Shown here: positions 2,502-39,563 of the stretch, one piece after another
How the letters are laid out: each line of letters opens with the position of its first letter
How positions within the stretch are numbered: position 1 is the stretch's first letter
DNA from: an uncultured Planctomycetales bacterium
GTDB lineage: Bacteria; Omnitrophota; Gorgyraeia; Zapsychrales; JAHFFX01
DNA length: 57,583 nt
Direction: 5' to 3'
Assembly (NCBI GenBank): GCA_964620805.1
Contig: CAZUJQ010000003.1
Span: 1 to 57,583, forward strand
Made by a program: the position numbers and the translations under genes
The notes under the pieces: model-generated
Told to the model about the DNA's origin: nothing
Database searches by the model: none
What the model saw: only the letters and a program-made list of their open reading frames with translations

Positions 2502-2504
2502 TTT

Positions 2505-3494: not shown

Positions 3495-3509
3495 GCGATT
3501 TTAAATAAG

Positions 3510-5303: not shown

Positions 5304-5319
5304 AATTAAAAAGAGGCGT

Positions 5320-5763
5320 ATGGAAGAAAAAATAGAACACATAGAAGGTGGCATTGCCATCGATGATCGAGGGCAGATCCAGTTTTGCAACGGTTTCACT
5401 TTTAAGGATATCCGCCGTTTTTATATCATTTTTAATCATGAAGCGCAATTTGTGAGGGCCTGGCACGGACATAAAAATGAAACAAAGTATGCGTTTGTCG
5501 TTTCCGGTGCGGCTATCGTTGCGGCTGTCAAAATCGACCATTGGGAAAGACCGGATAAAAACGCAAAGATGCACCGTTATGTGCTTAGCGAAAAAAAGCC
5601 GAGTATTTTAAAAATTCCCGGGGGTTTTGCCCATGGCTTTAAAACATTGACAAAAGATACGAAAATCATTTTTTTCTCTACCTCAACGGTTGAAGAAAGC
5701 CTCAAAGACGATTACCGCTTTGAAGCCTATTATTGGAATCCTTGGGAAATCCTGCAAAGATGA
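5320..5763 (+). CDS. Cupin-fold NDP-4-keto-6-deoxyhexose 3,5-epimerase (RmlC-like)
   Basis: DDRG, VRAWHGHK, IPGGFAHGFKTL; start moved to ATG 5320 behind AAGAGG. Confidence 0.8.
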   Translation: MEEKIEHIEGGIAIDDRGQIQFCNGFTFKDIRRFYIIFNHEAQFVRAWHGHKNETKYAFVVSGAAIVAAVKIDHWERPDKNAKMHRYVLSEKKPSILKIPGGFAHGFKTLTKDTKIIFFSTSTVEESLKDDYRFEAYYWNPWEILQR

Positions 5764-7217
5764 CAAAAAAGAAAGGTGACGTTATGGCCACCTATCCCTT
5801 GAATAACTTCGAGCTGATGCCTGCGTCTAAACTCAAGGCAGAAAATACCATTCATGATGCCCTGGATATTATTGAGGATAGGTATTGGATGATTGTTGTG
5901 ATTGTGGATGAGAAGGACAAAATCTGCGGTGTGGCCTCTGCCGGTGATTTACGTAAGGCTATTCTGAATGGAAGTTCGGTATACGCCTCACTCTCATCGG
6001 TCATGAATAAAAATCCTGTGTCTATCAAAGTAGGCCAATTACGGAATGTCAAAAGTGTCAACCGTGTTTTAGATGATTTAAGAAAGCGTTATGGCAGTAT
6101 CACGATGTTATACGCCATGGTTCCGGTCGTCAGCGAAGAGGAGCGCGTGCTCGGTCTAATCAGCCTCGAGTCTTTAACCAGTTACACTTCGAGTCCTGAG
6201 ATTAAGGCCCATCGACGCACCGTTTTAGTGGTCGGGGGTGCAGGCTACATCGGATCCGTTTTAACGAGGATATTATTGGAAAGCGGATGGAGTGTGCGGG
6301 TGTTGGATAAATTATTATATTCACAAGATTCTCTCAAAGGCCTCCAGGACGACCGGTTTACACTGATCAAAGGCGATGCCGGAAATATCGATGATATTGT
6401 GACCACGGTTGAGAATGTGGATGCTGTGGTTTATCTGGCGGAATTGGTTGGTGACCCCGCTTGTTCCTTTGCGCCCCAATCGACCTTAAAGACGAACTAT
6501 TTAGCCGTGACCTCGATGGCCCATTTGTGCTCACACTTAAACATCAACCGGTTTGTTTATACTTCGTCGTGCAGTGTGTATGGGGCCAGTAAAAATTTAG
6601 ACGACTTATTAAGCGAGGAATCGTCCGTTGAGCCGATTTCGCTTTATGCGAGGATAAAAGCACTCGTCGAGCAATCTATTCTGTCGGTGTGCAACTTGCC
6701 TAATCAATTATTTGCGCCCACCATTTTACGCTTAGGGACAGTTTTCGGTCATTCGTATCGCCCGCGGTTTGATCTGGTGGTTAATACTTTTGTTAAAAAT
6801 GCTTTGCAAAAAGGGATCATAGAGGTTTTCGGCGGGGAACAATGGCGGCCGAATGTTCATGTGAGGGATGTGGGGCAAGCCATTCTTCGCGTTTTGAATG
6901 CCCCCATGGAAAAAGTGAGGGCGCAAGTTTTTAACGTTGGCAGCAACGAGTTAAATTATCCCATTGGTGATTTGGCAAAGATTGCCAAGGAAGTTTTTCC
7001 GGAAGTCAAAATCGTTAAAAAGAAGAACGTTGTTGATGATAGAAATTACCGTGTCAGCTTTACCAAAATTGAAAAGGTATTAGGATCTCAGGGCATGGTC
7101 GGCATTAAAGAAGGAATGATGGAATTAAAAAAAGCCCTCGAGCAAAATGAATTAGCCGATTTGGATGCGGCTAAATACAGCAATTTTAAAATGCTTCAGG
7201 AGTTAAAATTAGTTTGA
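5760..7217 (+). CDS. CBS-pair domain fused to NAD-dependent epimerase/dehydratase
   Basis: N-terminal CBS-like IVVIVDEKDKICGVASAGDLRKAIL..VMNKNP..VPVVSEEERVLGLIS; C-terminal GGAGYIG and YARIK. ATG overlaps the upstream stop. Confidence 0.8.
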   Translation: MTKKKGDVMATYPLNNFELMPASKLKAENTIHDALDIIEDRYWMIVVIVDEKDKICGVASAGDLRKAILNGSSVYASLSSVMNKNPVSIKVGQLRNVKSVNRVLDDLRKRYGSITMLYAMVPVVSEEERVLGLISLESLTSYTSSPEIKAHRRTVLVVGGAGYIGSVLTRILLESGWSVRVLDKLLYSQDSLKGLQDDRFTLIKGDAGNIDDIVTTVENVDAVVYLAELVGDPACSFAPQSTLKTNYLAVTSMAHLCSHLNINRFVYTSSCSVYGASKNLDDLLSEESSVEPISLYARIKALVEQSILSVCNLPNQLFAPTILRLGTVFGHSYRPRFDLVVNTFVKNALQKGIIEVFGGEQWRPNVHVRDVGQAILRVLNAPMEKVRAQVFNVGSNELNYPIGDLAKIAKEVFPEVKIVKKKNVVDDRNYRVSFTKIEKVLGSQGMVGIKEGMMELKKALEQNELADLDAAKYSNFKMLQELKLV

Positions 7218-7221
7218 AATC

Positions 7222-8439
7222 ATGTCAACGCCATCAGAATCACTGAGAACAACTTATATCCCTTACGCGAGGCAGAGTTTGGATGCCGACGATATTGAGG
7301 CTGTTGTTGAGACTTTAAGAAGCGATTGGATCACCCAAGGACCAAAAATCAACGAATTCGAAAAGGCGGTTGCCGCCAAGGTCCAAGCCCAATATGCCAT
7401 CGCCGTTTCAACGGGAACGGCAGCGCTTCATTGTGCCTGCTTTGCGGCAGGAATAACAAAGGGAGACGAAGTTATCACCTCTCCCATTACTTTTGCGGCA
7501 AGCGGAAATTGTGCTCTTTTTTTGGGGGCTTCGGTTAAATTTGTTGATATACGACCGGATACTTATTGCATTGATTACAAAAAATTGGAATCGGCCATAA
7601 CCTTCCGCACCAAAGCAATCATACCGGTCGATTTTGCCGGCCAGCCCTGTGATATGGATGAAATCAACGCCATCGCCAAAAAATATCATTTAATCGTGAT
7701 TCATGATGCCGCTCATTCGCTGGGCGCAGCATATAAAAATCGGCCCGTAGGTTCGCTTGCCGATATGACCATCTTATCCTTTCATCCGGTCAAACACATT
7801 ACAACAGGTGAAGGGGGAATGGTTTTAACCGACGGTGAACAATTGGCCAAACAGTTGCGGCTTTTTCGTACGCACGGAATCACCAGCAATGAGGAAAGCA
7901 TGATTCTAAGAGATCAGGCCGCCGATAATAACGGCTTAAATGGCGGGAACGGAAATTCCAAGGCCGCCTGGTACTATGAGATGCAGGCGTTAGGGTACAA
8001 CTACCGCATTACAGATATGCAATGTGCGCTGGGTTTAAGTCAATTGAAGAAATTAGACGACTTTATTAACCGTCGCAGGAAAATTGTCGAACGGTACAAT
8101 CAGGCCTTTAAAGAATCTCCTTTTATCATTATTCCGCATGTGGAAAAGGACCGTCAAAGCGCCTGGCATCTTTATATGCTGCGTTTGAGGTTGGATAAAA
8201 TGACTAAAACACGACGTCAAGTCTTTGAGGAGTTGCGATCGTTAGGAATCGGCGTGCACGTTCATTACATTCCTCTCCATCTACAACCTTACTATCAAAA
8301 AAATTTTGGCTATAAAAGGGGGGATTTTCCCCAGGCAGAAAGCTACTATGATTCGGCCTTGACGATCCCTTTATTCCCCAGCATGACGGATGAGGAATGT
8401 CGCTATATTATCGAAGGGGTGTTAAAAACAGTTCAATGA
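7222..8439 (+). CDS. pseC: DegT-family sugar aminotransferase, PseC type
   Basis: IPYARQ..WITQGP, SFHPVKHITTGEGG (PLP lysine), WYYEMQALGYNYRITDMQCALG. Confidence 0.85.
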   Translation: MSTPSESLRTTYIPYARQSLDADDIEAVVETLRSDWITQGPKINEFEKAVAAKVQAQYAIAVSTGTAALHCACFAAGITKGDEVITSPITFAASGNCALFLGASVKFVDIRPDTYCIDYKKLESAITFRTKAIIPVDFAGQPCDMDEINAIAKKYHLIVIHDAAHSLGAAYKNRPVGSLADMTILSFHPVKHITTGEGGMVLTDGEQLAKQLRLFRTHGITSNEESMILRDQAADNNGLNGGNGNSKAAWYYEMQALGYNYRITDMQCALGLSQLKKLDDFINRRRKIVERYNQAFKESPFIIIPHVEKDRQSAWHLYMLRLRLDKMTKTRRQVFEELRSLGIGVHVHYIPLHLQPYYQKNFGYKRGDFPQAESYYDSALTIPLFPSMTDEECRYIIEGVLKTVQ

Positions 8440-9095
8440 TTACATTACCAGATTTTAGTAAGACTTTTGATTACGAAAATAACTTTTATCTCTCCTGTGA
8501 TGCAACGAGGATAGGTAAAATGCTTGCCCAGTACGAACTCTATAAGATGGTCCATGAAATTCCCGGGGTCATCGTAGAATGCGGCGTGCTTAAAGGGTGC
8601 TCGTTTATCCGGTTTGCATCTTTTCGCGATCTATTTGGACATGCTTTTTCTAGGAAGCTCATCGGTTTCGATACTTTCGGAACTTTCCCAGAGACTCATT
8701 TTGAGGCGGATAAAACAATGAGGCAGAGACACGAAGAGATGTGCGGAGAAAGCATATCAAAACAGCAATTACTGGGAGTTTTGCAACATAAGGGCTTGGA
8801 TAAAAATGTCGAACTCATTGAAGGAGATATCACCGAGACACTGCCTAAATATCTCGCTGGTCATTATGAATTGAAGCTCTCTCTTTTAAATATGGATGTG
8901 GATATCTACGAACCTTCAAAACTCATCTTAGAAAGTCTTTTCCCTAGGATTGTCAAAGGGGGTGTCTTGATTCTTGATGATTACGGGGTTTTCCCCGGTG
9001 AGACAAAAGCGGCAGACGAATATTTTAAGAATAAAAATATCAAGATCCAAAAATTCCCTTTTTGCATGACGCCCAGCTACGTGATTAAAGAATGA
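8436..9095 (+). CDS. TylF/MycF/NovP-family O-methyltransferase
   Basis: GVIVECGVLKG, GFDTF, LLNMDVDIYEPS, GGVLILDDYG; start at ATG 8436 overlapping the pseC stop. Confidence 0.8.
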   Translation: MITLPDFSKTFDYENNFYLSCDATRIGKMLAQYELYKMVHEIPGVIVECGVLKGCSFIRFASFRDLFGHAFSRKLIGFDTFGTFPETHFEADKTMRQRHEEMCGESISKQQLLGVLQHKGLDKNVELIEGDITETLPKYLAGHYELKLSLLNMDVDIYEPSKLILESLFPRIVKGGVLILDDYGVFPGETKAADEYFKNKNIKIQKFPFCMTPSYVIKE

Positions 9096-9124: not shown

Positions 9125-10111
9125 ATGCATTTTTTAATTATTGGATGCGGTTCGATCGGCCAGCGTCACATGAATAACCTTCAGGCCATGGGATATGACG
9201 TTACAGGATGCGATCCCGACCTCGCCCGCATAAATCTAATCAAAAGAAGATTCGGTATTGGTGTTTTTGATAACTTAAGACAGGCATTATCAAACGACTA
9301 TGACGCCGCATTGATCTGTGTGCCGACGAGTCTTCACCTTCCCTTAGCGATCGAGGTCGCCAAGCGAGGGATGCATCTGTTTATCGAAAAGCCTCTTTCC
9401 CATAGCTATGAGAGGATTGACGAATTGCAATCGATTGTCCGAAAGAAGAAAGTGACGGTCTTGGTCGGATGCAATACAAGATTTTTGCCGAGCCTCGTAT
9501 TGGCCCAAAAGTTTATTAAAGAGAACAGAATCGGAAAGATCTTATCGGCTAGAGTAGAATGCGGATTTTATCTTCCCTATTGGCATCCGCATGAAGATTA
9601 CCGCAATAGCTACAGTGCCAAGAAACATCTTGGCGGAGGCGTTATCTTCGATGATATCCATGAAATTGATTCCTTGATGTGGCTTTTAGGCGAAGTCCAA
9701 GAGGTATTCTGTTGCAAAGATACCCTTAGTAACCTTGAGATCAATACCGAAGATATTGCCGAGATCATCCTCAGGTTTCAATCAAAGACCATTGCCCAAA
9801 TTCATCTGGATTATTTGCAAAAGACCTACAGGCGTCAGTATATGTTTATTGGCGAGAAGGGAGATATTATCTGGGATTATATCGGTCAAGAAGTTAGACT
9901 TTATTTAAAGAAGACAAATCAATGGCAGGTCTTTCAGGAGAGCATTAATACAAAACGTGAAGTCATGTTTTTAAATGAGATGGAGCATTTCATTAATTGC
10001 ATACAGGGAAAAGAGCGGTCCGTAAACGATCTTGATTTTTCTAAAAAGATTTTAAAAGTCGCTTTGGCTTGCCTGAAATCCGCAGAAAGAAGAAAGGTCA
10101 TCACAGTATGA
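9125..10111 (+). CDS. Gfo/Idh/MocA family oxidoreductase
   Basis: IIGCGSIGQRH, HLFIEKPLS, GGGVIFDDIHEID. Confidence 0.85.
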   Translation: MHFLIIGCGSIGQRHMNNLQAMGYDVTGCDPDLARINLIKRRFGIGVFDNLRQALSNDYDAALICVPTSLHLPLAIEVAKRGMHLFIEKPLSHSYERIDELQSIVRKKKVTVLVGCNTRFLPSLVLAQKFIKENRIGKILSARVECGFYLPYWHPHEDYRNSYSAKKHLGGGVIFDDIHEIDSLMWLLGEVQEVFCCKDTLSNLEINTEDIAEIILRFQSKTIAQIHLDYLQKTYRRQYMFIGEKGDIIWDYIGQEVRLYLKKTNQWQVFQESINTKREVMFLNEMEHFINCIQGKERSVNDLDFSKKILKVALACLKSAERRKVITV

Positions 10112-12162
10112 TCGCTGGAATCATTCAAGCGAGAATGTCATCGACACGATTGCCCAATAAGACGTTAATGAAGATCATGGGGAAACCCCTATTATGGCAT
10201 CTTTTAGAAAGGGTCAAGCAGTCCCATTACATAGACGAGATTGTGATCGCAACAACCCATAATCCCAAGGATGATTTTATCGTGGATTTTGCCAGAAAAT
10301 ACGGGGTGAGGGTCTTTCGAGGAGATGAACACGATGTGCTAGGCCGTTTTTATCAGGCGGCTAAGGAAATACAGGCAAGGACAATCGTCCGCGTGACCCC
10401 CGACTGTCCGCTCCTATGCCCCCAGGTTATCGACCGGGTGATTGCCCAGTATTTAGAAGGTTCTTTTGATTATGCGACGAATACGCTTGTCTATACTTAT
10501 CCCGATGGTTATGACGTGGAGGTCTTCTCATTTGCAACGCTTGAGAAAACTTGGAAAGAATGCAAAGACCCTTTAAGTCGAGAACATGTTACTCTTTATA
10601 TGAAAAATTCGGGACGATTTAGGATTATCAATACATCCAATGAGATACCACTGGATTCGGCAGAATATAAATGGTCGGTTGACACTATAGAGGATTTAAA
10701 TTTTGTAAAGAAAATTTACGAACATTTATATCGAGGCAATGGAAAAATCTTCTCCATGAACGAAATTCTCAATTTATTGAGAAAACATCCTGAAATTAGA
10801 AAGATCAATTCAGGGATGGTTATCAATGAAGGTTATTACAAGAGCATATCAAAACTAAAAAAAGTGAACCCGCGAAGCCTTAAGCGACAAAAATCGCTGT
10901 TATTAAAGAAAAAAGCCGAAAGGCTCATTCCCGGCTGCAGTCAAACCTTTAGCAAGGCTCCCTTTCAATTTGTGCAAAGTGTTGCGCCCGTATTTGTCGA
11001 AAAAGGAACAGGGAGCCACCTTTGGGACGTGGACGGTAACGACTATATCGATTATGCCATGGCATTAGGCCCAGTGATTTTAGGGTACCACGATCCAATC
11101 GTGAACGAAGCTGTCAAAAAGGTTTTAACAAATGGAGTAACCTTTACCCTTCCTCATCGGTTGGAAATTGAGCTTGCCGAAGTTCTCTGTGAAATAATAC
11201 CCTGTGCCGAAATGGTGAGATTCGGCAAAAATGGTTCTGATGCCACCACCGGCGCCGTGCGGCTCGCCCGTGCCTATACACGGCGAGATAAAATTGCTTG
11301 CTGTGGTTATCATGGATGGCAGGATTGGTATATTGCAACCACCACACGCAACAAAGGGATCCCCGAAGACACTCGAAAACTCACCCTCACTTTTTCCTAT
11401 AACAAAATAGAGAGCTTGAAAAAAATTTTTGATGAGAATAAAAACGAGATTGCTGCTGTGATCATGGAACCGGTGGGGGTGGTTGCCCCGGAAGATGATT
11501 TCTTATCAAAGGTTAAGGAGTTGACACACCAACAGGGAGCTGTGCTTATTTTTGATGAAATTGTGACAGGCTTTCGTTTTTCATTAGGTGGAGCCCAGCA
11601 ATATTTCAACGTGGTGCCCGATCTTGCCTGCTTCGGCAAGGCCATAGCCAATGGTTTTCCGTTATCTGTGGTTGTAGGAAAAAAAGAGATCATGAAATTA
11701 TTTGGAGAGGTTTTTTACTCTTTTACGGCGGGAGGAGAAATCGTTTCCATTATGGCGGCGATCGCGACAATTCAAGAGCTACAAAGAAAAAAAGTCATAG
11801 AATTTTTATGGGAACAGGGTCGCAAGATCAAAGATGGTTACAATGTTTTGGCTCGTCAATACGAATTGGAGCCATATACGCGCTGTGTCGGTTTTCCTCC
11901 TCGCACGGTCATTGAATTTAAAAATGAGAGGGGCGAAGATGATTTGATCTTGAAAAGTCTATTCCAGCAGGAATGCATTAAGCGCGGCCTCCTCTTTACC
12001 GGAACGCACAACATCTGTTTCTCTCATTCCAACAGGGATATTGAGTATACTTTAAAAGTTTACAGGACAGTTTTAGAAATTATTCTGTCTGCCCGAAAAA
12101 AAAATAGGATAAGAAAACTTCTCAAAGGCGATCCCATAGTTCCTATTTTTAGGACATATTAA
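10108..12162 (+). CDS. SpsF-like cytidylyltransferase fused to class III (GSA-like) PLP aminotransferase
   Basis: N-term IIQARMSSTRLPNKTL..RVTPDCPL..REHVT..WSVDTIED; C-term WDVDGNDYID, GKNGSDAT, LIFDEIVTGFR, CFGKAIANG. Confidence 0.85.
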   Translation: MIAGIIQARMSSTRLPNKTLMKIMGKPLLWHLLERVKQSHYIDEIVIATTHNPKDDFIVDFARKYGVRVFRGDEHDVLGRFYQAAKEIQARTIVRVTPDCPLLCPQVIDRVIAQYLEGSFDYATNTLVYTYPDGYDVEVFSFATLEKTWKECKDPLSREHVTLYMKNSGRFRIINTSNEIPLDSAEYKWSVDTIEDLNFVKKIYEHLYRGNGKIFSMNEILNLLRKHPEIRKINSGMVINEGYYKSISKLKKVNPRSLKRQKSLLLKKKAERLIPGCSQTFSKAPFQFVQSVAPVFVEKGTGSHLWDVDGNDYIDYAMALGPVILGYHDPIVNEAVKKVLTNGVTFTLPHRLEIELAEVLCEIIPCAEMVRFGKNGSDATTGAVRLARAYTRRDKIACCGYHGWQDWYIATTTRNKGIPEDTRKLTLTFSYNKIESLKKIFDENKNEIAAVIMEPVGVVAPEDDFLSKVKELTHQQGAVLIFDEIVTGFRFSLGGAQQYFNVVPDLACFGKAIANGFPLSVVVGKKEIMKLFGEVFYSFTAGGEIVSIMAAIATIQELQRKKVIEFLWEQGRKIKDGYNVLARQYELEPYTRCVGFPPRTVIEFKNERGEDDLILKSLFQQECIKRGLLFTGTHNICFSHSNRDIEYTLKVYRTVLEIILSARKKNRIRKLLKGDPIVPIFRTY

Positions 12163-12187: not shown

Positions 12188-13903
12188 ATGTCAATCCAGT
12201 TAGAGCAACAGACATTAAACAGGTTCTTCTACCGATTCCAATGCGACGGTAGAATTGCCGATCCCAAGGAAGCCCGCATCACGACAGAGGATTCCGAACG
12301 GCAATTCCCAGCAAGAGACGACGGATTGCTGGTGCTGCTGATCAATCCCCCTATTCGAGAATGGTCATATCCCAATATCATGCCCGTGGGGCAGGGATAT
12401 GTTGCTTCGGTTGCGGTTATGGACGGCCACCGTGTAGAGACGCTGGATTTAAATGCTCTTCGCCGACAACCGATTAAAACCTCACCGGAAGAATTTTCTA
12501 AATGGGTGGAGGAGAAAATCACACAGGCCCTTCTTAAGGTCAGGCCTGATGTGATTGGCATAGGAGGAATCATCACGCAATATGGAAGGATAAAGCAGAT
12601 TACAAATATTTGCAAGAGGGTTTGCCCCCAAACGCCCATTGTCTTAGGTGGCGGGATCGCTTCGTGTATGCCGGAGTTTATGGTCAAGAGATTGCCGATC
12701 GATGTGGCTGTGATGAAAGAAGGAGAGGTTATTTTTTCTGAAGTTCTCCATCGAATAGAACACAGGGTTTCCTTTGAAGGGCTGGCGGGTGTTGCGTATC
12801 GACACGAAATACGCCCCGGAGAATGGGAAGCCAGAAATAACGGCTTACGGACTTCCATTTCGGCCCGCGAACAAGGATTGGATTGTCTGCCATGGCCTCT
12901 TCGTTCGCGATGGCCGATTGATGAGATTTATAAGAGAAACCCCATAGGGCATCTGAATTGGAAGAGCAAATGGATTGACGGAGCTCCGACCACGAATATG
13001 TATTCTGTTGAGATGATTGCCTCGCGTGGCTGCCCTTATGCAGCCAAGGCTTGCGATTATTGTTATGCCTCTTATTTAGGCAAAACCTACCGGTTAAGAA
13101 CTCCTAAAGAAGTCGTGGATGAAATGCAATATATTAGTAGGCGCTATCAGGCCGAATATATCCATTTTCTGGATGATTTATTGATGACGGATTACCGCTG
13201 GGCCATGGAATTATGTGATGAGCTGAGAAAACGAAAGGCGCAGTCGGGATGGGAGGTGATGTGGGGCGGCACGTGTCGGACGAATATCATTGCGGATGAT
13301 GTGATTCGGGCAAAAAAAGAGGGGCGACCTCATATCTTGGAGCTTGCCTATGAGGTTGGGATGCGACAGGCCGGCTATGGTGTCGAATCCGCAAGCCCGA
13401 CGATTTTAAAATCCATCGATAAAAGCGGCCAAACCGTAGAAAAGATAGAAATCTCCATTCGTGAGACGCAGAGAGTGATGGGCTATGCGGATTGTTCATT
13501 TATGATTGGTTCTCCCGGTGAGACAAGACAGACGGTGCGAGAGACCGTTGATGTTTGCAAGAGGATTGGTTTAAAGCCAGAGGTGTTCTTTTTTACGACC
13601 GCCTATCCGGCCACTTCCTTTTGGGATTTAGCGTTGGAAAAAGGGTTGATCACAAAGGCCGTTACAGGAAAAAAAGGGCCGGCAGACGAAGATATTATTG
13701 AGGAGTATTTCTTACGTTTAGGAGAGCAGGGCGAAGAGGTCCGGACCAATTTTAGCGATCTGCCGGATGAGGAAATTGCTGAACTTTCCTGGTGGGCGGT
13801 CACAGAATTAGGGGCTCAAAATACCGTCCGCCATCCTCACTCCGGAGAACAGCAGGAGCGGAAAAAACCAGCTATACGAGGAGCGACGAAGGCAGATTTA
13901 TAA
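12188..13903 (+). CDS. Cobalamin-binding radical SAM protein (class B methyltransferase-like) with atypical CX6CX2C
   Basis: LLINPP..DVIGIGGI..IVLGGG..GEGE-like (KEGE) B12-binding region; SRGCPYAAKACDYC; HFLDD, GVESASPTIL; strong AGGAGG RBS. Confidence 0.82.
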   Translation: MSIQLEQQTLNRFFYRFQCDGRIADPKEARITTEDSERQFPARDDGLLVLLINPPIREWSYPNIMPVGQGYVASVAVMDGHRVETLDLNALRRQPIKTSPEEFSKWVEEKITQALLKVRPDVIGIGGIITQYGRIKQITNICKRVCPQTPIVLGGGIASCMPEFMVKRLPIDVAVMKEGEVIFSEVLHRIEHRVSFEGLAGVAYRHEIRPGEWEARNNGLRTSISAREQGLDCLPWPLRSRWPIDEIYKRNPIGHLNWKSKWIDGAPTTNMYSVEMIASRGCPYAAKACDYCYASYLGKTYRLRTPKEVVDEMQYISRRYQAEYIHFLDDLLMTDYRWAMELCDELRKRKAQSGWEVMWGGTCRTNIIADDVIRAKKEGRPHILELAYEVGMRQAGYGVESASPTILKSIDKSGQTVEKIEISIRETQRVMGYADCSFMIGSPGETRQTVRETVDVCKRIGLKPEVFFFTTAYPATSFWDLALEKGLITKAVTGKKGPADEDIIEEYFLRLGEQGEEVRTNFSDLPDEEIAELSWWAVTELGAQNTVRHPHSGEQQERKKPAIRGATKADL

Positions 13904-13905
13904 TC

Positions 13906-14937
13906 ATGATGAAAGTTTTTATCAGGGTTGATGCCTCGGATGTCATTGGAACGGGGCATATGTTTCGCACGCTTGTTTTGGCTGAGGGTTTGCGCGCCTT
14001 ATCAGATGATGTGACTTTTTTATGTCGGGATTTACCATATTTCCCCAGCAAAAGAATTACCGATTTGGGCTTTCGCTTAAGTATTATCCCGCCCGCTGAT
14101 TCTTTGAGCGGTGAATTACCTTTGATCCAAGAAAAAATAGCCCGTGAGCAACCGGACTGGATCATTATCGATCATTACGACATTAAAAAAGATTATTATT
14201 TATATTTAAGGAGAAATCGAATCAAAATCTTGTCGATTGACGATATCAATCATACCCGTTTTCCTGTCGATGTCTTACTCAACCAGAATGTCAATGCCTT
14301 TGAGCATAAGTATCAATGTGAGAAAGAAACCATTCAATTGCTTGGGACCCAATATGCTCTCGTGAGAGAAATTTACCGCCAAAAAAGAAAACAAGCCACG
14401 ATAAGAGATTCTTTAAAAAAGGTTCTTATCTTTATGGGAGGATCTGATCCGGATAATCAGACCCTGAAAGTTTTAAACGCCTTAACTTTATCGCGGCGCA
14501 AAGTTGATGCCGATATTGTCCTTGGACCGGCCTTTCAACATAAGGATATGATTGAGAAAGAGGCATCGAGAAACGGTATTAGATATTCTATCCATCAAAA
14601 TCTTGACCATCTGGCCGATGTGATGTTAAGGACCGATCTGGCGATTGGTGCAGGGGGTTTAGCCAGTTTGGAGATGGCGACCATGAAATTGCCGATGATC
14701 CTTATGCCCATCGCGGACAATCAAAGACAGATTGCCCAATGCCTGCATGAGAAGGGGGCGGCAATCAACGCCGGATGGTTTAAGAATGTCGATGAGCAGC
14801 ATATCGCCAAAATCCTTACAGGTCTTTCTTTAGAAAAAGTAAATCAGATGAGTCGAATCGCCAGCCGCCTTTGCGATGGTGAGGGTGTAAATTCAGTCCT
14901 AGAGATCATGGATTCGGTTTTACAGGGAGCAAAATGA
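13906..14937 (+). CDS. pseG: UDP-2,4-diacetamido-2,4,6-trideoxyhexose hydrolase, PseG type
   Basis: FIRVDASDVIGTGHMFR, IIIDHY, LLGTQYALVR, FMGGSDP, IADNQ. Confidence 0.85.
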   Translation: MMKVFIRVDASDVIGTGHMFRTLVLAEGLRALSDDVTFLCRDLPYFPSKRITDLGFRLSIIPPADSLSGELPLIQEKIAREQPDWIIIDHYDIKKDYYLYLRRNRIKILSIDDINHTRFPVDVLLNQNVNAFEHKYQCEKETIQLLGTQYALVREIYRQKRKQATIRDSLKKVLIFMGGSDPDNQTLKVLNALTLSRRKVDADIVLGPAFQHKDMIEKEASRNGIRYSIHQNLDHLADVMLRTDLAIGAGGLASLEMATMKLPMILMPIADNQRQIAQCLHEKGAAINAGWFKNVDEQHIAKILTGLSLEKVNQMSRIASRLCDGEGVNSVLEIMDSVLQGAK

Positions 14938-15980
14938 AACGGATTGTTAGAATTGGAAAACGATTTATCGGCGACGGCCATCCGTGTTTTATCATTGCGG
15001 AGGCGGGGAGCAATCATAACGGAAATCTTGAAAAAGCCTTCCGCTTGATTGATGTGGCTGCGCAGGCCCAGGCCGATGCCATTAAGTTTCAAACCTTCAA
15101 GGCAGAAAAGCTCTACATCAAAAAAGCCGGCTATGCCGATTATCTGAACAACAAAAAATCTATTTATCAAATTATCAAAGAGATGGAGATGCCGGAAAGC
15201 TGGATCCCGCGTCTAGCCGCATACTGCGATAAGAAAGGAGTTGTTTTTCTCTCAACGCCGTTTGATGAGCAGTCCGTTGATCTTTTGGATCGTTATGTAC
15301 CGGCCTTCAAAATAGCATCTTATGAAATGAGCCATATCCCCCTCGTTAAACACATTGCCAAGAAAGGGAAGCCCATTATTATGTCAACAGGAACAGCTCA
15401 TCTCAAAGAAGTGGAAAAGAGTGTTCGGGTTATAAAAAGCCAAGGTAATGAAGAATTGATCCTCATGCAGTGCACAGCCTGTTACCCGGCGCCCCTGGAT
15501 TCGTTAAATCTGCGAAGTATTGTTACCATGAAAACAAAGTTCCAAGTTCCGATGGGACTTTCCGACCACTCCCGTGAGTTTGATATCGGACCTCTAGCCG
15601 CGATTGCGCTTGGGGCCAATTGTCTTGAGAAGCATGTTACGCTATCGAATAAACTTGAGGGACCGGATCATAAGTTTGCCGTTGAGCCAGAGGAATTAAG
15701 GTTAATGGTCAAAAAGATAAGAGAAGTTGAAGTAGCGCTCGGTACTGGCAGAAAAGAGGTTCTGGGAGTCGAAAGAGAACTTCGTCGGTTCGCCCGTCGA
15801 AGCGTTTTTGCTATAGAGAATATCCATCCCGGTGATATCTTTTCAACGAGAAACACGGCCGTGCTAAGAGCCGGCAAAATTCGCTACGAAATTAAACCCG
15901 AAGAATACGAAAATATTTTAGGGAGAAGCGCCAAAAGAAGGATAGAAAAATATAATTCGATAAAAAGAGGTGATTATTAA
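14934..15980 (+). CDS. neuB: Nonulosonic acid synthase (NeuB/SpsE/PseI family) with C-terminal SAF domain
   Basis: IIAEAGSNHNG, IKFQTF, FLSTPFD, FKIASYE, GLSDHS, LEKHVTL, DH, RRSVFA. Confidence 0.88.
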   Translation: MKRIVRIGKRFIGDGHPCFIIAEAGSNHNGNLEKAFRLIDVAAQAQADAIKFQTFKAEKLYIKKAGYADYLNNKKSIYQIIKEMEMPESWIPRLAAYCDKKGVVFLSTPFDEQSVDLLDRYVPAFKIASYEMSHIPLVKHIAKKGKPIIMSTGTAHLKEVEKSVRVIKSQGNEELILMQCTACYPAPLDSLNLRSIVTMKTKFQVPMGLSDHSREFDIGPLAAIALGANCLEKHVTLSNKLEGPDHKFAVEPEELRLMVKKIREVEVALGTGRKEVLGVERELRRFARRSVFAIENIHPGDIFSTRNTAVLRAGKIRYEIKPEEYENILGRSAKRRIEKYNSIKRGDY

Positions 15981-16065: not shown

Positions 16066-16875
16066 ATGAGTGTTCAAGAATCCTTAAAGAATGAAATTGA
16101 AAGCGTTATTTCTGTTAATAGGAAGGATCTGGATTTTTCTATTTTTAAAGAGATTATCGATACGTATGGGGTTTTGATTTGCCGTGATGCCTTCCCTCTT
16201 ACGGTCCTTAAGGAAATCCGGGACGAAATTTACCAACAAGTTTTTTACCGCATGAAGATCGGCCGTGATTTTAGAAAGGATTTGGCCGACCTCAAAGAGT
16301 TTCCCAAAGAACTTAAGGTTAAAACGTTAAACTTCCTTCTTGAGGGCGTCAGTGACATGGCTGAGATTGACCCCGAAAATATTTTCCGATCAGCAGTTGA
16401 AAACTGCGGCATTATGCCGCTTGTCGAGCGCTACGTTGATAAGGGTATGATTCATTGGCTTCGGCCCTACTACTATGCCCGTACCGTTGATCCACTTGAG
16501 GAAAAATTTAAACTCAAGCTTCATCAGGATGGGACTTTCTTGCGGGCTTTGGGTGTGCCGCCCGAGCATTTTTTTAACTGCTGGGCTCCCTTGGTTACCA
16601 TCGCTGGAAATACACCGGGCTTGGAACTTGTGGCCAAACGCTTTCATTCTATTTTTGAAACGGGAAAGACCGCGGATGGTTACCACGGTATTGTGATGCA
16701 ATCTGAAGAAGAATTTTTAAGGGAATACAAGGAATATGTGGTAACCCCGAAAGTTCAGATGGGGGACTTTATTATCTTTACGCCATTCACGCCGCACCGG
16801 ACGCACTTAACGGAGAACATGAGAGATATTCGCACCAGCGTCGATTTTCGTTTCTATTGCGGCGAACTTAAATAA
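16066..16875 (+). CDS. Phytanoyl-CoA dioxygenase (PhyH)-like Fe(II)/2-oxoglutarate oxygenase
   Basis: LHQDG (HxD), NCWAPL, GLEL, GDFIIFTPFTPHRT (distal His), RTSVDFRF. Confidence 0.75.
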   Translation: MSVQESLKNEIESVISVNRKDLDFSIFKEIIDTYGVLICRDAFPLTVLKEIRDEIYQQVFYRMKIGRDFRKDLADLKEFPKELKVKTLNFLLEGVSDMAEIDPENIFRSAVENCGIMPLVERYVDKGMIHWLRPYYYARTVDPLEEKFKLKLHQDGTFLRALGVPPEHFFNCWAPLVTIAGNTPGLELVAKRFHSIFETGKTADGYHGIVMQSEEEFLREYKEYVVTPKVQMGDFIIFTPFTPHRTHLTENMRDIRTSVDFRFYCGELK

Positions 16876-28119: not shown

Positions 28120-30131
28120 AAGCACTGTCTAAGAAATCTAAGAAGCCCAAACCACCAATGTCAGATCCCATCGATATCGGACAAGAGATTTATGGGCTTA
28201 TGGTTGAGCTTTATCCGATTTGCCGTAGTATCACCGGCGATGGCGTTCGAAAAACGCTGCGCATAATTTCAAAACATATTCCCCTTAAGGTCACAGAAGT
28301 GCCGACCGGGATAAAAGTGTTGGATTGGACCGTACCCAGAGAGTGGAACATTAAGGATGCTTATATTAAAAATTCTAGGGGAGAGAAGATAATAGATTTC
28401 AAGCATTCCAATCTGCATGTTTTGAATTACAGTGTGCCTGTCTCTAAAACGGTAAACCTCGAAGAATTAAAGAAACATATTTTTACTTTGCCCCAATATC
28501 CCGATCGAATACCTTACCGGACGTCCTATTATCAGGAGAATTGGGGCTTTTGTATGACTCACCATCAGTTCCAGCAATTAAAAGAGGATACGTATAAAGT
28601 TGTGATCGACTCAGAGCTAAAAGAAGGGAGCCTTACCTTTGGTGAGTTCTTTCTTGAGGGGAATTCAAAAGAAGAAATCTTGTTTTCCTGTTATCTTTGC
28701 CATCCCTCTTTGTGCAATGACAATTTAAGCGGAATTGTCCTTTTGACATTCTTGGCCAAATCCCTTTTAGGGCATTCTTTAAAATATTCGTATCGGTTTT
28801 TGTTTATTCCGGAGACAATCGGCTCTATTACGTGGTTGAGTTTAAATGAAGAAAGGGTCGAAAATATCAAAGGTGGATTAGTCGCAACCTGTGTGGGTGA
28901 TCCCGGTTCAATGACCTACAAGAAAAGCCGCAAAGCAAATACCTTGATTGATAAGACGGTGGAAAAAGCCCTGATTGATTTAAAAGATCCCTATAAAATC
29001 ATCGACTTTTTTCCATCGGGAAGCGATGAGCGTCAATTCTGTTCTCCGGGTTTTAATTTGCCGATCGGTTCATTGATGAGGACCCCCTACGGGCAGTTTT
29101 CTCAATATCATACTTCGGCCGATAATTTAGATTTTGTAGAGCCTCAATATTTAGGCGATTCCTTTAAAAAATATGAAGCGGTCGTTTCAATCTTAGAAAA
29201 AGATAGTACCTACCTTAATCTTAATCCTAAATGCGAGCCTCAATTGGGAAAGCGGGGACTTTACAGTATGATCAGCGGATTTGGTGAGGACGGAGCCAGG
29301 GAGGTAGCTATGCTCTGGGTTCTTAATCTTTCCGATGGAAACCACTCCCTCTTAGATATTGCTATCCGTTCACAATTGCCTTTTGAACGGATTAGAGAGG
29401 CGGCCGACGCCTTATTGAAAAGCGGTCTATTAAAAATCGCACTAACCACACAGAAAGAAGATTTTACTCCGATGTCCCCATGTCCATCTCAGGCGGATGA
29501 AGCAGCGGTGGATCGGAGTTTCCCGACCGAAGCATCGGGGAACCGCGAAACAAAAGAGGCCATGGACGATAGCCCACGGAGCTTCACCTTAAGGCAGGCG
29601 CGGAAGAATGACTGCAAGGATTTATGGGTTTGGCGCAATCACCCTGAGGTCAGAAAGTGGTGTTTTAATAAAGAGGGAATCCCCTATGGGCAGCATAAAA
29701 CATGGTTTGAAGGGATATCAAAAAACGGCAAAACAACGATATTTATCATACAAGGGAAGGATAAGGAAAAGCTCGGCCAAGTGAGGTTCGATGGTGTCGG
29801 TTCTGAAAAGGCTCTCATCAATATCAATCTTAATCCGAAATTTTTTAACAGAGGAATCGGGACGCGCGCGATTCAAATGGCGACAAGAATTTTTTTAGAG
29901 TCCACCCCGGCAGTTAAAGAAATTATTGCCGAGATTTTTAAACAGAATGCCGTTTCAAAGCGAGCTTTTCAAAAAGCGGAATATTTAAAGCTAAGAAGTG
30001 AAGTCAAAAACAACGAGAAAATAGAGATTTTTTCCTTTAAGCGTAGCCTTAAAGTTCCTGAAAATGCAAGTGAAAAATCAAACCGATATATTTATGAAAA
30101 AAGAGGGCAATGCCTGGTTTCAGAGAAATAA
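28101..30131 (+). CDS. DUF4910 (DUF2172 + M28-like + HTH) protein fused to PseH-like GNAT acetyltransferase
   Basis: YPICRSITGDGVRKT, WTVPREW, YRTSYYQENWGFC, CHPSLCNDNLSG, SDERQFCSPG, YHTSAD, CEPQLGKRGLY; then LRQARKNDCKDLWVWRNHPEVR..HKTWF..IGTR..NAVSKRAF. True start may be ATG 28158. Confidence 0.82.
   Translation: MGNLQLKALSKKSKKPKPPMSDPIDIGQEIYGLMVELYPICRSITGDGVRKTLRIISKHIPLKVTEVPTGIKVLDWTVPREWNIKDAYIKNSRGEKIIDFKHSNLHVLNYSVPVSKTVNLEELKKHIFTLPQYPDRIPYRTSYYQENWGFCMTHHQFQQLKEDTYKVVIDSELKEGSLTFGEFFLEGNSKEEILFSCYLCHPSLCNDNLSGIVLLTFLAKSLLGHSLKYSYRFLFIPETIGSITWLSLNEERVENIKGGLVATCVGDPGSMTYKKSRKANTLIDKTVEKALIDLKDPYKIIDFFPSGSDERQFCSPGFNLPIGSLMRTPYGQFSQYHTSADNLDFVEPQYLGDSFKKYEAVVSILEKDSTYLNLNPKCEPQLGKRGLYSMISGFGEDGAREVAMLWVLNLSDGNHSLLDIAIRSQLPFERIREAADALLKSGLLKIALTTQKEDFTPMSPCPSQADEAAVDRSFPTEASGNRETKEAMDDSPRSFTLRQARKNDCKDLWVWRNHPEVRKWCFNKEGIPYGQHKTWFEGISKNGKTTIFIIQGKDKEKLGQVRFDGVGSEKALININLNPKFFNRGIGTRAIQMATRIFLESTPAVKEIIAEIFKQNAVSKRAFQKAEYLKLRSEVKNNEKIEIFSFKRSLKVPENASEKSNRYIYEKRGQCLVSEK
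29483..29543. repeat. Two short palindromes inside the DUF4910-GNAT linker
   Basis: TCCATC-TCA-GGCGGA (29483-29497, imperfect) and GTTTCCCGA-CCGAAGCA-TCGGGGAAC (29518-29543, 9-bp stem with one G-U). Confidence 0.5.
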
Positions 30132-39541: not shown

Positions 39542-39563
39542 TATCGAATGGTAAAAGGAGCTC

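What the first reader, a model, noticed from the sequence alone, without database searches (positions are those of the whole stretch)
9125..12162. Oxidoreductase plus cytidylyltransferase-aminotransferase fusion: extra amination of a ulosonic acid
Seen: a Gfo/Idh/MocA gene coupled to an SpsF-like CMP-transferase fused to an intact class III aminotransferase (DEIVTGFR, GKAIANG), beyond the PseC amination. Established: oxidation followed by transamination converts sugar hydroxyls to amines (the logic of KdnB/KdnA in Kdo8N synthesis). Inference: a tri-amino or otherwise unusual nonulosonate is made and activated in a channelled way.
Basis: partly seen in the sequence, partly recalled or inferred. 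Interest (0 to 1): 0.58.

Follow-up and report, generated by a model that had tools for sequence, protein, structure and literature searches.

The report
Extra-amination module in pseudaminic-acid operon
Two real, translationally coupled genes (an NAD-type oxidoreductase, and a sugar-activating cytidylyltransferase fused to an aminotransferase) sit inside an operon for a sialic-acid-like surface sugar; the trio is widespread and biochemically untested, and it most likely activates the sugar and replaces one of its hydroxyls, probably at C8, with a third amino group.

Summary
A Gfo/Idh/MocA gene (9125-10111) overlaps by ATGA a 684-aa gene (10108-12162). That gene fuses an SpsF-type CTP_transf_3 cytidylyltransferase to an intact GSAM-like class III aminotransferase, and PseC, PseG and a NeuB/PseI-like synthase flank the pair.

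In 80 related loci from many phyla the order is PseB-PseC-[Gfo or aldo-keto reductase]-fusion-PseG-PseI. Acidobacteriota fuse all three domains into one about 1029-aa protein. Relatives in the window's own order carry split forms.

No canonical PseF was found in six genomes carrying the module, so the cytidylyltransferase domain is probably the CMP-nonulosonate synthetase. The genome has a true HemL elsewhere. The fused aminotransferase lacks 9 residues of the GSAM gating loop and the GGVNSPVR motif, so it is not a heme enzyme.

The studied relative EpaA/EpaB (cytidylyltransferase-reductase fusion plus dehydrogenase) epimerises Pse at C8. That points to C8 oxidation followed by transamination here.

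The product is not demonstrated, and "channelling" rests only on the fusion. This window also lacks canonical PseB and PseH, so its precursor route is atypical.

This scan has reached the same reading on other DNA many times (50 notes). I rate it a new variant of a known kind, of moderate interest.

The parts
9125..10111 (+). Gfo/Idh/MocA NAD(P)-dependent oxidoreductase (328 aa), proposed to oxidise a nonulosonate hydroxyl to a ketone
   Evidence: Pfam PF01408, PF22725 and PF02894. Best NCBIfam hits are far below cut-off: UDP-GlcNAc 3-dehydrogenase 141 bits against 450, inositol 2-DH 131 against 355. Nearest PDB entries are generic dehydrogenases at about 70 bits. A homologue lies within 3.5 kb of the fusion in 50 of 80 loci, and is fused to it in Acidobacteriota.
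10108..10860 (+). SpsF-type cytidylyltransferase domain of the fusion (about residues 1-250), probable CMP-nonulosonate synthetase
   Evidence: PF02348 at 117.9 bits. PseF model TIGR03584 scores only 36 bits against a 205.7 cut-off. PDB 6oew 'cytidylyltransferase' scores 137.6 bits over residues 4-231. Motifs ARMSSTRLPNK and VDTIEDL are present. Q7, R9, R14, K18, D99, D192 and D196 are invariant in 46 fusions.
10888..12162 (+). GSAM-like class III (fold type I) PLP aminotransferase domain of the fusion (about residues 261-684)
   Evidence: PF00202 at 179.6 bits. NF004856 scores 426.5 against 486 and hemL TIGR00713 scores 289.6 against 527.3, both below cut-off. PLP Lys511 and D483/E484 are invariant. 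The family shares a 9-residue gating-loop deletion and QTFSK in place of NSPVR.
7222..8439 (+). PseC-type (DegT) sugar 4-aminotransferase
   Evidence: TIGR03588 at 515.4 bits against a 423.5 cut-off. Found in 55 of 58 well-flanked related loci.
8397..9095 (+). TylF-family SAM methyltransferase directly upstream of the oxidoreductase
   Evidence: PF05711 at 9.5e-22. Methyltransferases often sit beside or fused to the Gfo gene in related loci, for example L013 (MT-Gfo fusion) and clusters c41 and c58.
12188..13903 (+). B12-binding radical SAM enzyme directly downstream of the fusion
   Evidence: PF02310 and PF04055. A B12-rSAM gene (cluster c22) lies next to the Gfo gene in 7 related loci.
13792..14937 (+). 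PseG-type nucleotide-sugar hydrolase (true start probably near 13909)
   Evidence: TIGR03590 at 239 bits against a 153.55 cut-off, aligned from residue 40.
14934..15980 (+). NeuB/PseI-like nonulosonate synthase
   Evidence: PF03102 at 1.5e-86. NeuB_NnaB scores 361.7 against 399.65 and PseI scores 310.6 against 340.25, both just below cut-off.
5733..7217 (+). CBS-pair plus extended-SDR protein in the position where related loci have PseB
   Evidence: PF00571 and PF01370. The SDR domain is nearest to PDB 6vo6 'putative sugar-nucleotide epimerase/dehydratase' at 142.7 bits. No canonical PseB was found in the genome.
26296..30131 (+). Two N-acetyltransferase-domain proteins (AAC(3)-like; DUF4910/HTH_47 with a C-terminal GNAT), candidates for the PseH step and for capping an extra amine
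   Evidence: PF02522, PF13302, PF16254 and PF09940. The GNAT is the genome's best PseH-like match, at 48.9 bits against a 93.1 cut-off.

Best explanation
The two genes form a three-activity tailoring and activation module of a pseudaminic-acid-type nonulosonate pathway.

(1) The N-terminal SpsF-type CTP_transf_3 domain is the pathway's CMP-nonulosonate synthetase. It takes the place of PseF. This is inferred by exclusion and from the studied relatives SpsF, FlmC and EpaA.

(2) The Gfo/Idh/MocA enzyme oxidises a secondary hydroxyl of the nine-carbon sugar to a ketone. The most likely site is C8, the CH3-CH(OH)- end of the side chain. This is inferred.

(3) The GSAM-like class III aminotransferase domain converts that ketone into an amine using an amino-acid donor and PLP. 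The product would be a 5,7,8-triamino-3,5,7,8,9-pentadeoxy-nonulosonate, delivered as its CMP ester. This is inferred.

The hexose C3-OH and C5-OH become the ring oxygen and the C8-OH of the nonulosonate, and the C4-OH is created by the synthase. So the only hydroxyls open to such chemistry (C4, C8) exist only after the PseI step. That fits the fusion of the tailoring enzymes to the last enzyme of the pathway.

Whether oxidation and amination come before or after CMP attachment is unknown. In this window the adjacent TylF-like methyltransferase and B12-radical-SAM enzyme may further methylate the product.
For: Anatomy:
- ATGA-coupled genes with intact catalytic motifs in all three domains.
- CT and AT catalytic residues are invariant across 46 fusions.
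- A confident single-chain AlphaFold model: pLDDT 90.3, pTM 0.90.

Context:
- In 80 loci from Omnitrophota, Acidobacteriota, Chloroflexota, Thermodesulfobacteriota, Nitrospirota, Aquificota, Pseudomonadota and one archaeon, the order is PseB-PseC-[oxidoreductase]-fusion-PseG-PseI.
- Of 58 loci with at least 6 kb on each side, 55 have PseC, 54 PseB, 53 PseI, 52 PseG and 52 an adjacent oxidoreductase.
- A Gfo-CT-AT single polypeptide is confirmed by Pfam (L025, 1029 aa).
- Split CT and AT genes occur in both orders in 8 genomes of the window's own order, again between PseC and PseG/PseI.

CT as the activating enzyme:
- No PseF over cut-off in five fusion-bearing genomes, two of them complete chromosomes. 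The only other CTP_transf_3 hit in each is one open frame of about 250-325 aa.
- SpsF is needed for legionaminic-acid transfer but not for its synthesis (PMC7439481).
- FlmC, a cytidylyltransferase not homologous to PseF, completes a six-enzyme Pse reconstitution (PMC7591256).

AT is not GSAM:
- A true HemL lies on another contig (543 bits against 527) and is only 35% identical to the AT domain.
- The 9-residue gating-loop deletion and loss of GGVNSPVR are shared by the whole family.

Precedent for the site and chemistry:
- EpaA (CTP_transf_3 plus aldo-keto reductase) with EpaB (SDR) converts Pse5Ac7Ac to its C8 epimer, shown by NMR (PMC12053666).
- The AT's nearest non-GSAM structural relatives act on side-chain carbonyls or amines: FumI aminopentol aminotransferase and aminoglycoside C-6' aminotransferases.
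Against: No product has been observed for any member of this family, and I found no paper describing a triamino nonulosonate.

In 17 of 80 loci the partner is an aldo-keto reductase rather than a Gfo enzyme. AKRs usually reduce carbonyls, and in EpaA the AKR is presumed to be the reducing half, so these loci have no obvious oxidase.

An extra N-acyltransferase to cap a third amine is not always present. The acidobacterial triple-fusion loci, and L092, show only one GNAT.

I could not fetch EpaA to test whether its CT domain belongs to the same subfamily.

This window has two further CTP_transf_3 genes (32733-33479, 34912-35679), so here the CT domain is not the only candidate activator. The window also lacks canonical PseB and PseH, so the sugar skeleton here may differ from Pse.
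Confidence: 0.5

Rival explanations
1. Same oxidise-then-aminate logic, but at the ring C4 hydroxyl of the (CMP-)nonulosonate. The product would be a 4,5,7-triamino sugar.
For: C4-OH is the only other free hydroxyl of a 5,7-diacylamido-9-deoxy nonulosonate (pathway logic). Gfo/Idh/MocA enzymes typically oxidise ring secondary alcohols; the best NCBIfam hits here are UDP-GlcNAc 3-dehydrogenase and inositol 2-dehydrogenase.
Against: Ring ketones of nucleotide sugars are normally aminated by DegT-family enzymes, not class III (my own knowledge). The AT's nearest non-GSAM relatives act on acyclic or side-chain positions. The studied CT-fused relative EpaA/EpaB acts at C8.
Confidence: 0.1
2. The chemistry runs the other way, or is redox-neutral. 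The AT removes or relocates an amine (deamination, or GSAM-like 1,2-amino shift) and the oxidoreductase reduces the resulting ketone. The product would be an epimer or a hydroxy/amino isomer of Pse rather than a triamino sugar.
For: The partner is an aldo-keto reductase in 17 of 80 loci and in most same-order relatives. The AKR of EpaA is the presumed reductase half of a C8 epimerisation. The AT is closest to an aminomutase. Deacetylases (PIG-L, polysaccharide deacetylase) occur in some loci.
Against: The GSAM gating loop that retains the diamine intermediate is deleted. Aminating with PseC and then deaminating would be wasteful. Deacetylases are present in only a minority of loci. Gfo and AKR partners are mutually exclusive, so one generic C-OH/C=O step is needed rather than an oxidase-reductase pair.
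Confidence: 0.12
3. The AT and oxidoreductase make a non-sugar building block, such as an amino-acyl or amino-alcohol substituent later attached to N5/N7 or to a phosphate. The CT domain either activates that block or merely activates ordinary Pse.
For: Related loci are rich in acyl-tailoring genes: formyltransferase, FemAB-like, ATP-grasp, WbqC, GNATs. The window itself encodes FabH, SDRs, MaoC and FkbH. CT-reductase fusions that make CDP-alditols exist in other CT families (my own knowledge: TarI/TarJ, Bcs1).
Against: All characterised PF02348 members activate ulosonic acids (my own knowledge). Triple fusion and strict placement between PseC and PseG/PseI argue for a shared sugar substrate. 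No other CMP-Pse synthetase was found in five carrier genomes.
Confidence: 0.1
4. Specific to this window: the precursor is not made by an inverting UDP-GlcNAc 4,6-dehydratase, so the nonulosonate keeps a hydroxyl that Pse lacks, for example at C5 or C9. The module aminates that position. The product would then carry two or three amines in a different pattern.
For: No canonical PseB or PseH in a 94%-complete genome. Upstream genes are a glucose-1-P cytidylyltransferase (311 bits against 300), a CDP-glucose-4,6-dehydratase-like SDR, an RmlC-like cupin and a CBS-SDR nearest to PDB 6vo6. The synthase scores between NeuB and PseI. Class III relatives aminate primary C-6' aldehydes.
Against: PseC and PseG both score above their equivalog cut-offs. 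The genome is incomplete. The CDP-hexose genes may serve another sugar of this 50-kb glycan locus.
Confidence: 0.08
5. The aminotransferase domain is just a second glutamate-1-semialdehyde aminomutase (heme or tetrapyrrole synthesis) fused by accident.
For: Best database names are GSAM: NF004856 at 426 bits and PDB GSAMs at about 225 bits.
Against: It scores below both curated GSAM cut-offs. A true HemL is present elsewhere. The gating-loop deletion and altered substrate motif are conserved in 72 family members. The domain always lies in Pse operons.
Confidence: 0.02

Closest known systems
EpaA/EpaB of Acinetobacter baumannii prophages (Pse5Ac7Ac to 8-epi-Pse5Ac7Ac; Sharar et al. 2025, PMC12053666)
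   Same: An N-terminal CTP_transf_3 domain is fused to a carbonyl-processing enzyme and paired with a separate NAD(P) dehydrogenase. The pair acts on pseudaminic acid after its synthesis, and C8 redox chemistry is shown by NMR of the capsule.
   Different: EpaA's partner domain is an aldo-keto reductase, not an aminotransferase, and the dehydrogenase is an SDR, not Gfo/Idh/MocA. The outcome is epimerisation, not amination. EpaAB works alongside a canonical PsaF, whereas carriers of the present module lack PseF. Sequence relatedness of the two CT domains was not tested, because EpaA could not be fetched.
SpsF (Bacillus subtilis) and FlmC (Caulobacter crescentus): non-PseF cytidylyltransferases of nonulosonate pathways
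   Same: These are stand-alone cytidylyltransferases filling the last, CMP-activating step in Leg and Pse operons (PMC7439481; PMC7591256). The source databases name homologues of the fusion 'SpsF'.
   Different: They are single-domain proteins of about 250 aa, with no aminotransferase and no obligatory oxidoreductase partner. The evidence for them is genetic or by reconstitution, not enzymological. I did not align FlmC or SpsF to the window protein.
Canonical CMP-pseudaminic acid pathway PseB-PseC-PseH-PseG-PseI-PseF (Helicobacter, Campylobacter)
   Same: PseC and PseG equivalogs and a NeuB/PseI-type synthase flank the module. Related loci also carry canonical PseB and PseI.
   Different: PseF is replaced by the SpsF-type domain, and two extra activities (oxidoreductase, class III aminotransferase) are inserted. 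In this window PseB and PseH are also not canonical.
Glutamate-1-semialdehyde 2,1-aminomutase (HemL)
   Same: Same fold, with 30-35% identity. The PLP lysine and the DE..GF motif are kept.
   Different: The domain scores below the hemL cut-off, lacks 9 residues of the gating loop, has QTFSK instead of NSPVR, and does not conserve the Glu of the 'LEAFF' segment. It is a paralogue of a true HemL in the same genome.
Dehydrogenase plus class III aminotransferase pairs of aminoglycoside C-6' tailoring (e.g. GenQ/GenB1, NeoQ/NeoB) and KdnB/KdnA of Kdo8N
   Same: The logic matches: an alcohol is oxidised to a carbonyl and then transaminated to an amine on a sugar side chain. PDB 'C-6' aminotransferase' entries match the AT domain at about 140 bits. 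In this window a B12-radical-SAM enzyme and a SAM methyltransferase flank the module, as GenK and GenL accompany GenQ/GenB1 (analogy from my own knowledge).
   Different: The dehydrogenase families differ (FAD/GMC or Fe-ADH against Gfo/Idh/MocA), the substrates differ, and there is no cytidylyltransferase fusion. This is a resemblance of logic, not family membership.

Membership tests
PseF (CMP-pseudaminic acid synthetase, TIGR03584) | Score at or above the curated equivalog cut-off of 205.7 bits | tested here: not met
   36.4 bits for residues 1-271 and 35 bits in the genome search.
CTP_transf_3 (PF02348) ulosonate cytidylyltransferases, SpsF-type | Pfam domain over the gathering threshold, plus an N-terminal R/K CTP-binding loop and a C-terminal VDTxxD metal motif | tested here: met
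   117.9 bits against 22.6. ARMSSTRLPNK and VDTIEDL are present. R9, R14, K18, D192 and D196 are invariant in 46 homologues. PDB 6oew matches at 137.6 bits over nearly the whole chain.
CTP_transf_3, SpsF-type | Formation of a CMP-nonulosonate from CTP and the free sugar | not testable with these tools
   Supported only by exclusion: no PseF and only one other CTP_transf_3 gene in five carrier genomes.
Glutamate-1-semialdehyde 2,1-aminomutase (HemL, TIGR00713 / NF004856) | Score at or above the curated cut-offs (527.3 and 486 bits) | tested here: not met
   289.6 and 426.5 bits. The genome's real HemL scores 543.4.
Glutamate-1-semialdehyde 2,1-aminomutase (HemL) | Full-length active-site gating loop and the GGVNSPVR substrate-binding motif (roles recalled from the GSAM structure literature, not re-read here) | tested here: not met
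   A 9-residue deletion in the loop and QTFSK in place of NSPVR, conserved in 72 family members.
Class III (fold type I) PLP aminotransferases, PF00202 | Pfam domain over threshold, with the catalytic Schiff-base lysine and the PLP-pyridine aspartate | tested here: met
   179.6 bits against 30.5. K511 and D483 are invariant. Structural match to GSAM and FumI with TM 0.85-0.90.
Gfo/Idh/MocA oxidoreductases | N-terminal Rossmann domain (PF01408) plus C-terminal alpha/beta domain (PF02894/PF22725), with an EKP motif | tested here: met
   81.7, 66.9 and 67.3 bits, all over threshold. EKP lies at residue 88. No specific subfamily was reached.
EpaA/EpaB-type C8 tailoring module | CTP_transf_3 domain fused to a carbonyl-processing domain, with a partner dehydrogenase, in a Pse-producing genome | tested here: met
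   The architecture and context are as described. The fused domain is an aminotransferase rather than an AKR.
EpaA/EpaB-type C8 tailoring module | Sequence orthology of the CT domain to EpaA, and action at C8 of Pse | not tested
   The EpaA sequence was not retrievable; the phage collection gave only one unrelated marine virus hit. The site of action needs chemistry.
Canonical CMP-Pse pathway (six enzymes) | PseB, PseC, PseH, PseG, PseI and PseF all present over cut-off | tested here: not met
   In this genome only PseC (515.4 bits) and PseG (239 bits) pass. PseI scores 310.6 against 340.25, the best PseB match is 64.5 against 407.75, PseH 48.9 against 93.1, and PseF 59.2 against 205.7.

The most novel reading that the evidence does not exclude
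The module makes a class of bacterial sialic-acid-like sugar never described chemically: a CMP-activated 8-amino-8-deoxy (5,7,8-triamino-pentadeoxy) nonulosonate. It would be present on the surfaces of thousands of environmental bacteria. In this window the new side-chain amine or its neighbouring carbon would be further methylated by the flanking B12-radical-SAM and TylF-type methyltransferases, a tailoring sequence that parallels C-6' maturation in gentamicin.
Probability: 0.4. Interest if true: 0.7.

Novelty: new variant of a known kind. Interest (0 to 1): 0.5.

Why it matters
Nonulosonic acids decorate flagella, capsules, LPS and S-layers, and they shape recognition by phages, antibodies and immune lectins. 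All described bacterial members carry at most two nitrogens.

If this widespread module installs a third amine, it defines a new sugar class. It would also add a new enzyme activity, a class III transaminase acting on a nonulosonate, and explain why many Pse operons lack PseF. In databases, thousands of proteins named 'glutamate-1-semialdehyde aminomutase' would need a different name.

The hypothesis can be tested directly with three soluble domains and commercially accessible Pse chemistry.

Tried and rejected
I rebuilt neighbourhoods myself from 80 fetched loci by ORF calling and clustering.
- Literature searches found no paper on this module. I tried triamino or triacetamido nonulosonates, GSAM with nonulosonic/legionaminic/pseudaminic, and SpsF with aminotransferase. 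The only results were a Legionella Sg6/12 gene table listing the split pair next to PseG and a Moritella CT-AKR note.
- I tried to fetch EpaA through the phage collection using the CT domain. It returned one unrelated marine virus hit.
- A 'longer proteins' search with the CT domain, meant as an architecture census, was swamped by CT-AT fusions and gave no census.
- I asked whether an extra N-acyltransferase always accompanies the module, which would support a third amine. Many loci have two or three (an extra GNAT 'c10', formyltransferase, FemAB-like), but acidobacterial triple-fusion loci and L092 have only one. I dropped this as evidence.
- A 693-aa protein with a class III domain on contig C88 is only 25% identical over the AT domain and unrelated at its N-terminus. 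It is not a second copy of the module.
- The Foldseek search of the AlphaFold model added nothing beyond the sequence searches.
- I could not name the organism. Cluster look-ups gave no names. The nearest named homologues are Omnitrophota and Planctomycetia MAGs at 64-65% identity.

Full report
**1. What is in the sequence**

The window is one whole contig of a 2.59-Mb genome bin that is 94% complete. Nearly all of its genes lie on the + strand and encode glycan biosynthesis.

At the finding's coordinates there are two genes. ORF 9125-10111 (328 aa) is a complete Gfo/Idh/MocA oxidoreductase by three Pfam domains. It reaches no curated subfamily. The best NCBIfam hits are UDP-GlcNAc 3-dehydrogenase (141 bits against 450) and inositol 2-dehydrogenase (131 against 355). 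The nearest solved structures are generic dehydrogenases at about 70 bits.

Its TGA stop overlaps the ATG at 10108 as ATGA. From there a 684-aa protein runs to 12162. Residues 1 to about 250 are a CTP_transf_3 cytidylyltransferase (117.9 bits). Residues from about 260 to 684 are a class III aminotransferase (179.6 bits). The only correction is the start codon, which is the ATG at 10108 rather than the TTG at 10069.

**2. Surroundings**

Upstream lie:
- a PseC equivalog (7222-8439, 515 bits against a 423.5 cut-off);
- a TylF-family methyltransferase (8397-9095).

Downstream lie:
- a B12-binding radical SAM enzyme (12188-13903);
- a PseG equivalog (239 bits against 153.55);
- a NeuB/PseI-like synthase (14934-15980).

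The module therefore sits in the middle of a pseudaminic-acid-type operon.

This genome is unusual in having no canonical PseB (best 64.5 bits against 407.75), PseH (48.9 against 93.1) or PseF (59.2 against 205.7). The PseB position is occupied by a CBS-pair plus SDR protein, whose SDR domain is closest to PDB 6vo6. Ahead of that protein lie an RmlC-like cupin, a glucose-1-phosphate cytidylyltransferase and a CDP-glucose-4,6-dehydratase-like gene. How the PseC substrate is made here remains open.

**3. The fusion is a large, conserved family**

A protein search returned 7980 significant matches among the 8000 candidates scored. The best 120 all share the same two-domain architecture at 57-74% identity, and sources often name them 'glutamate-1-semialdehyde aminomutase / SpsF'.

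Eighty genomic loci were fetched, from Omnitrophota, Planctomycetia, Chloroflexota, Thermodesulfobacteriota, Acidobacteriota, Nitrospirota, Aquificota, Bdellovibrionota, Burkholderiales and one Woesearchaeote. I called and clustered their ORFs and annotated cluster representatives.

The recurrent order is PseB - PseC - [oxidoreductase] - fusion - PseG (often fused to a GNAT) - PseI. Among the 58 loci with at least 6 kb on both sides:

| Gene | Loci out of 58 |
|---|---|
| PseC | 55 |
| PseB | 54 |
| PseI | 53 |
| PseG | 52 |
| adjacent oxidoreductase | 52 |

Over all 80 loci the partner is a Gfo/Idh/MocA homologue in 50 and an aldo-keto reductase in 17, and the two never occur together. None was found within 3.5 kb in 13 loci, several of which are truncated. 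A few of those carry an SDR instead.

**4. Gene-fusion evidence that the three activities belong together**

In Acidobacteriota the oxidoreductase is part of the same polypeptide. L025:8954-12043 (1029 aa) has Gfo N- and C-domains, then CTP_transf_3, then Aminotran_3. Elsewhere the cytidylyltransferase (CT) and aminotransferase (AT) are separate adjacent genes (L061, L074).

In eight genomes of the window's own taxonomic order the split pair occurs in both orders, CT then AT or AT then CT. It always lies between PseC/AKR and PseG/PseI. None of the 30 relatives searched (same family or order) has the fused form, and the closest fused homologues come from other phyla. This suggests, though not strongly, that the window's cassette arrived by horizontal transfer.

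**5. The cytidylyltransferase domain**

It fails the PseF model but is a full-length PF02348 domain. The CTP-binding loop (ARMSSTRLPNK) and metal motif (VDTIEDL) are intact. Q7, R9, R14, K18, D99, D192 and D196 are invariant in 46 fusions. It matches PDB 6oew over almost its whole length.

Five genomes that carry the fusion, two of them complete chromosomes, have no PseF over cut-off. Each has only one other CTP_transf_3 open frame of about 250-325 aa, presumably KdsB. By exclusion, the fused domain is the CMP-nonulosonate synthetase in those genomes.

Published relatives agree with this:
- B. subtilis spsF is needed for transfer of legionaminic acid but not for its synthesis (PMC7439481).
- Caulobacter FlmC is described as a cytidylyltransferase without homology to PseF, and it completes a six-enzyme Pse pathway reconstituted in E. 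coli (PMC7591256).

I did not align SpsF or FlmC to the window protein. In this window two more CTP_transf_3 genes exist downstream, so the exclusion argument is weaker for this particular genome.

**6. The aminotransferase domain is not HemL**

It scores below both curated GSAM cut-offs. The genome encodes a true HemL on contig C2 (543.4 bits against 527.3) that is only 35% identical to the AT domain.

I aligned 72 family members against that HemL. The family keeps the PLP lysine and the DE..GF motif. It differs from HemL in three ways:
- GGVNSPVRxF is replaced by IPg..QTfSKg.
- Nine residues are missing from the segment that forms the GSAM active-site gating loop (HGWQDWYI.T---tRn). This is also the least confident part of an otherwise confident AlphaFold model (pLDDT 90.3, pTM 0.90).
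- The Glu of the HemL 'LEAFF' segment is not kept.

The roles of these GSAM elements (carboxylate binding, retention of the diamine intermediate, exclusion of 2-oxoacids) are recalled from the GSAM structure literature and were not re-read here.

After the GSAMs, the nearest solved relatives are FumI, an aminopentol aminotransferase with the highest TM-score (0.90), D-phenylglycine aminotransferase, PctV and aminoglycoside 'C-6' aminotransferases'. Several of these work on side-chain or acyclic carbonyl/amine positions.

**7. Mechanistic reading**

In Pse biosynthesis the hexose C3-OH and C5-OH become the ring oxygen and the C8-OH of the nine-carbon acid, and the C4-OH is created by the synthase. 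This is established pathway chemistry. The only hydroxyls an oxidoreductase/transaminase pair could convert (C4, C8) therefore appear only after PseI. That fits the physical fusion of the pair to the last enzyme of the pathway.

A studied relative supports C8. EpaA (CTP_transf_3 plus aldo-keto reductase, 542 aa) with EpaB (an SDR) converts Pse5Ac7Ac into 8-epi-Pse5Ac7Ac in A. baumannii, shown by NMR of the capsule (PMC12053666). A Moritella Pse cluster has the same CT-AKR gene followed by a dehydrogenase (PMC7371886). Replacing the reductase half by a transaminase would give an 8-amino sugar. The CH3-C(=O)- end produced by C8 oxidation is the kind of methyl ketone that class III enzymes handle (inference).

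I therefore favour this route: oxidation at C8, transamination, and CMP activation, with the order of the last step unknown. The product would be a CMP-5,7,8-triamino-pentadeoxy-nonulosonate.

**8. Weak points**

- No product is known, and I found no report of such a sugar.
- The AKR partner in 17 loci is awkward. AKRs normally reduce, and those operons show no other oxidase. Either the AKR runs oxidatively, pulled by transamination, or the chemistry is different (deamination plus reduction, or an amino shift).
- An additional N-acyltransferase is common but not universal.
- 'Channelling' is supported only by the fusions.
- In this window the precursor route is atypical (section 2), so the position aminated could differ from the family norm.

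**9. Window-specific extras**

A TylF-type methyltransferase and a B12-radical-SAM enzyme bracket the module. B12-rSAM genes sit next to the Gfo gene in 7 other loci, and SAM methyltransferases are adjacent or fused to it in several (L013 MT-Gfo fusion; clusters c41 and c58).

This recalls the C-methylation, oxidation, transamination and N-methylation sequence at C-6' of gentamicin. That parallel is an analogy from my own knowledge and was not tested.

**10. Relation to earlier notes of this scan**

The same module has been noted on other DNA 50 times, with the same reading. Those notes gave me the EpaA/EpaB and FlmC leads, and I read both papers myself. They are not independent evidence.

**11. 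Verdict**

It is a new variant of a known kind: a Pse pathway with an EpaAB-like tailoring module in which a transaminase replaces the reductase. It is widespread, biochemically untested and directly testable. Interest is moderate, at 0.5.

Noticed in passing
window 32733-37534 (+): A second ulosonate-like cassette: a PseF-like CTP_transf_3 (59 bits), a HAD phosphatase, an HpcH/HpaI class II aldolase, a KdsB-type cytidylyltransferase (292 bits, over the PRK13368 cut-off), a D-2-hydroxyacid dehydrogenase and an SDR epimerase. It may build and CMP-activate another 2-keto-3-deoxy acid through a pyruvate aldolase rather than a NeuB-type synthase.
   Followed up: partly
window 1716-7217 (+): Canonical PseB is absent from the genome. 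In its place, upstream of PseC, lie a glucose-1-P cytidylyltransferase (over cut-off), a CDP-glucose-4,6-dehydratase-like SDR, an ABC exporter, an RmlC-like cupin (5194-5763) and a CBS-pair plus SDR protein nearest to PDB 6vo6. This is a possible non-orthologous route (dehydrogenase or dehydratase plus a separate epimerase) to the 4-keto sugar that PseC aminates.
   Followed up: partly
window 18992-26058 (+): A fatty-acid or polyketide-like acyl-building set inside the glycan locus: a small 104-aa ORF (possibly a carrier protein, no Pfam hit), an SDR, two SAM methyltransferases, FabH-like KS III, a MaoC-dehydratase-SDR fusion and an FkbH-domain protein. A second FabH-like gene lies at 48335-49354. 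This suggests an unusual N- or O-acyl substituent on the sugar.
   Followed up: no
window 26296-30131 (+): Two large proteins combine DUF4910/DUF2172 (aminopeptidase-like) modules with N-acetyltransferase domains. One has an AAC(3)-type Antibiotic_NAT domain. The other has HTH_47 plus a GNAT, which is the genome's best, sub-threshold, PseH-like match.
   Followed up: partly
window 16066-18965, 30772-32733, 37547-41252, 45883-48054, 52809-55746: Several long ORFs (269-723 aa) in the operon have no Pfam or NCBIfam match. They are candidates for novel glycosyltransferases, polymerases or membrane proteins.
   Followed up: no
window 55980-57530 (-): A second B12-binding radical SAM gene lies on the opposite strand at the end of the contig.
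   Followed up: no
L013:8284-9999 and L025:8954-12043 (related loci): Further natural fusions of the module: a SAM methyltransferase fused to the Gfo oxidoreductase (571 aa), and Gfo-cytidylyltransferase-aminotransferase in one 1029-aa chain, which is typical of Acidobacteriota.
   Followed up: yes
L084:1740-3821 (-) (own genome, contig C88): A 693-aa protein has a C-terminal class III aminotransferase domain only 25% identical to the module's AT. It may be a BioA-type fusion and is unrelated to the finding.
   Followed up: partly
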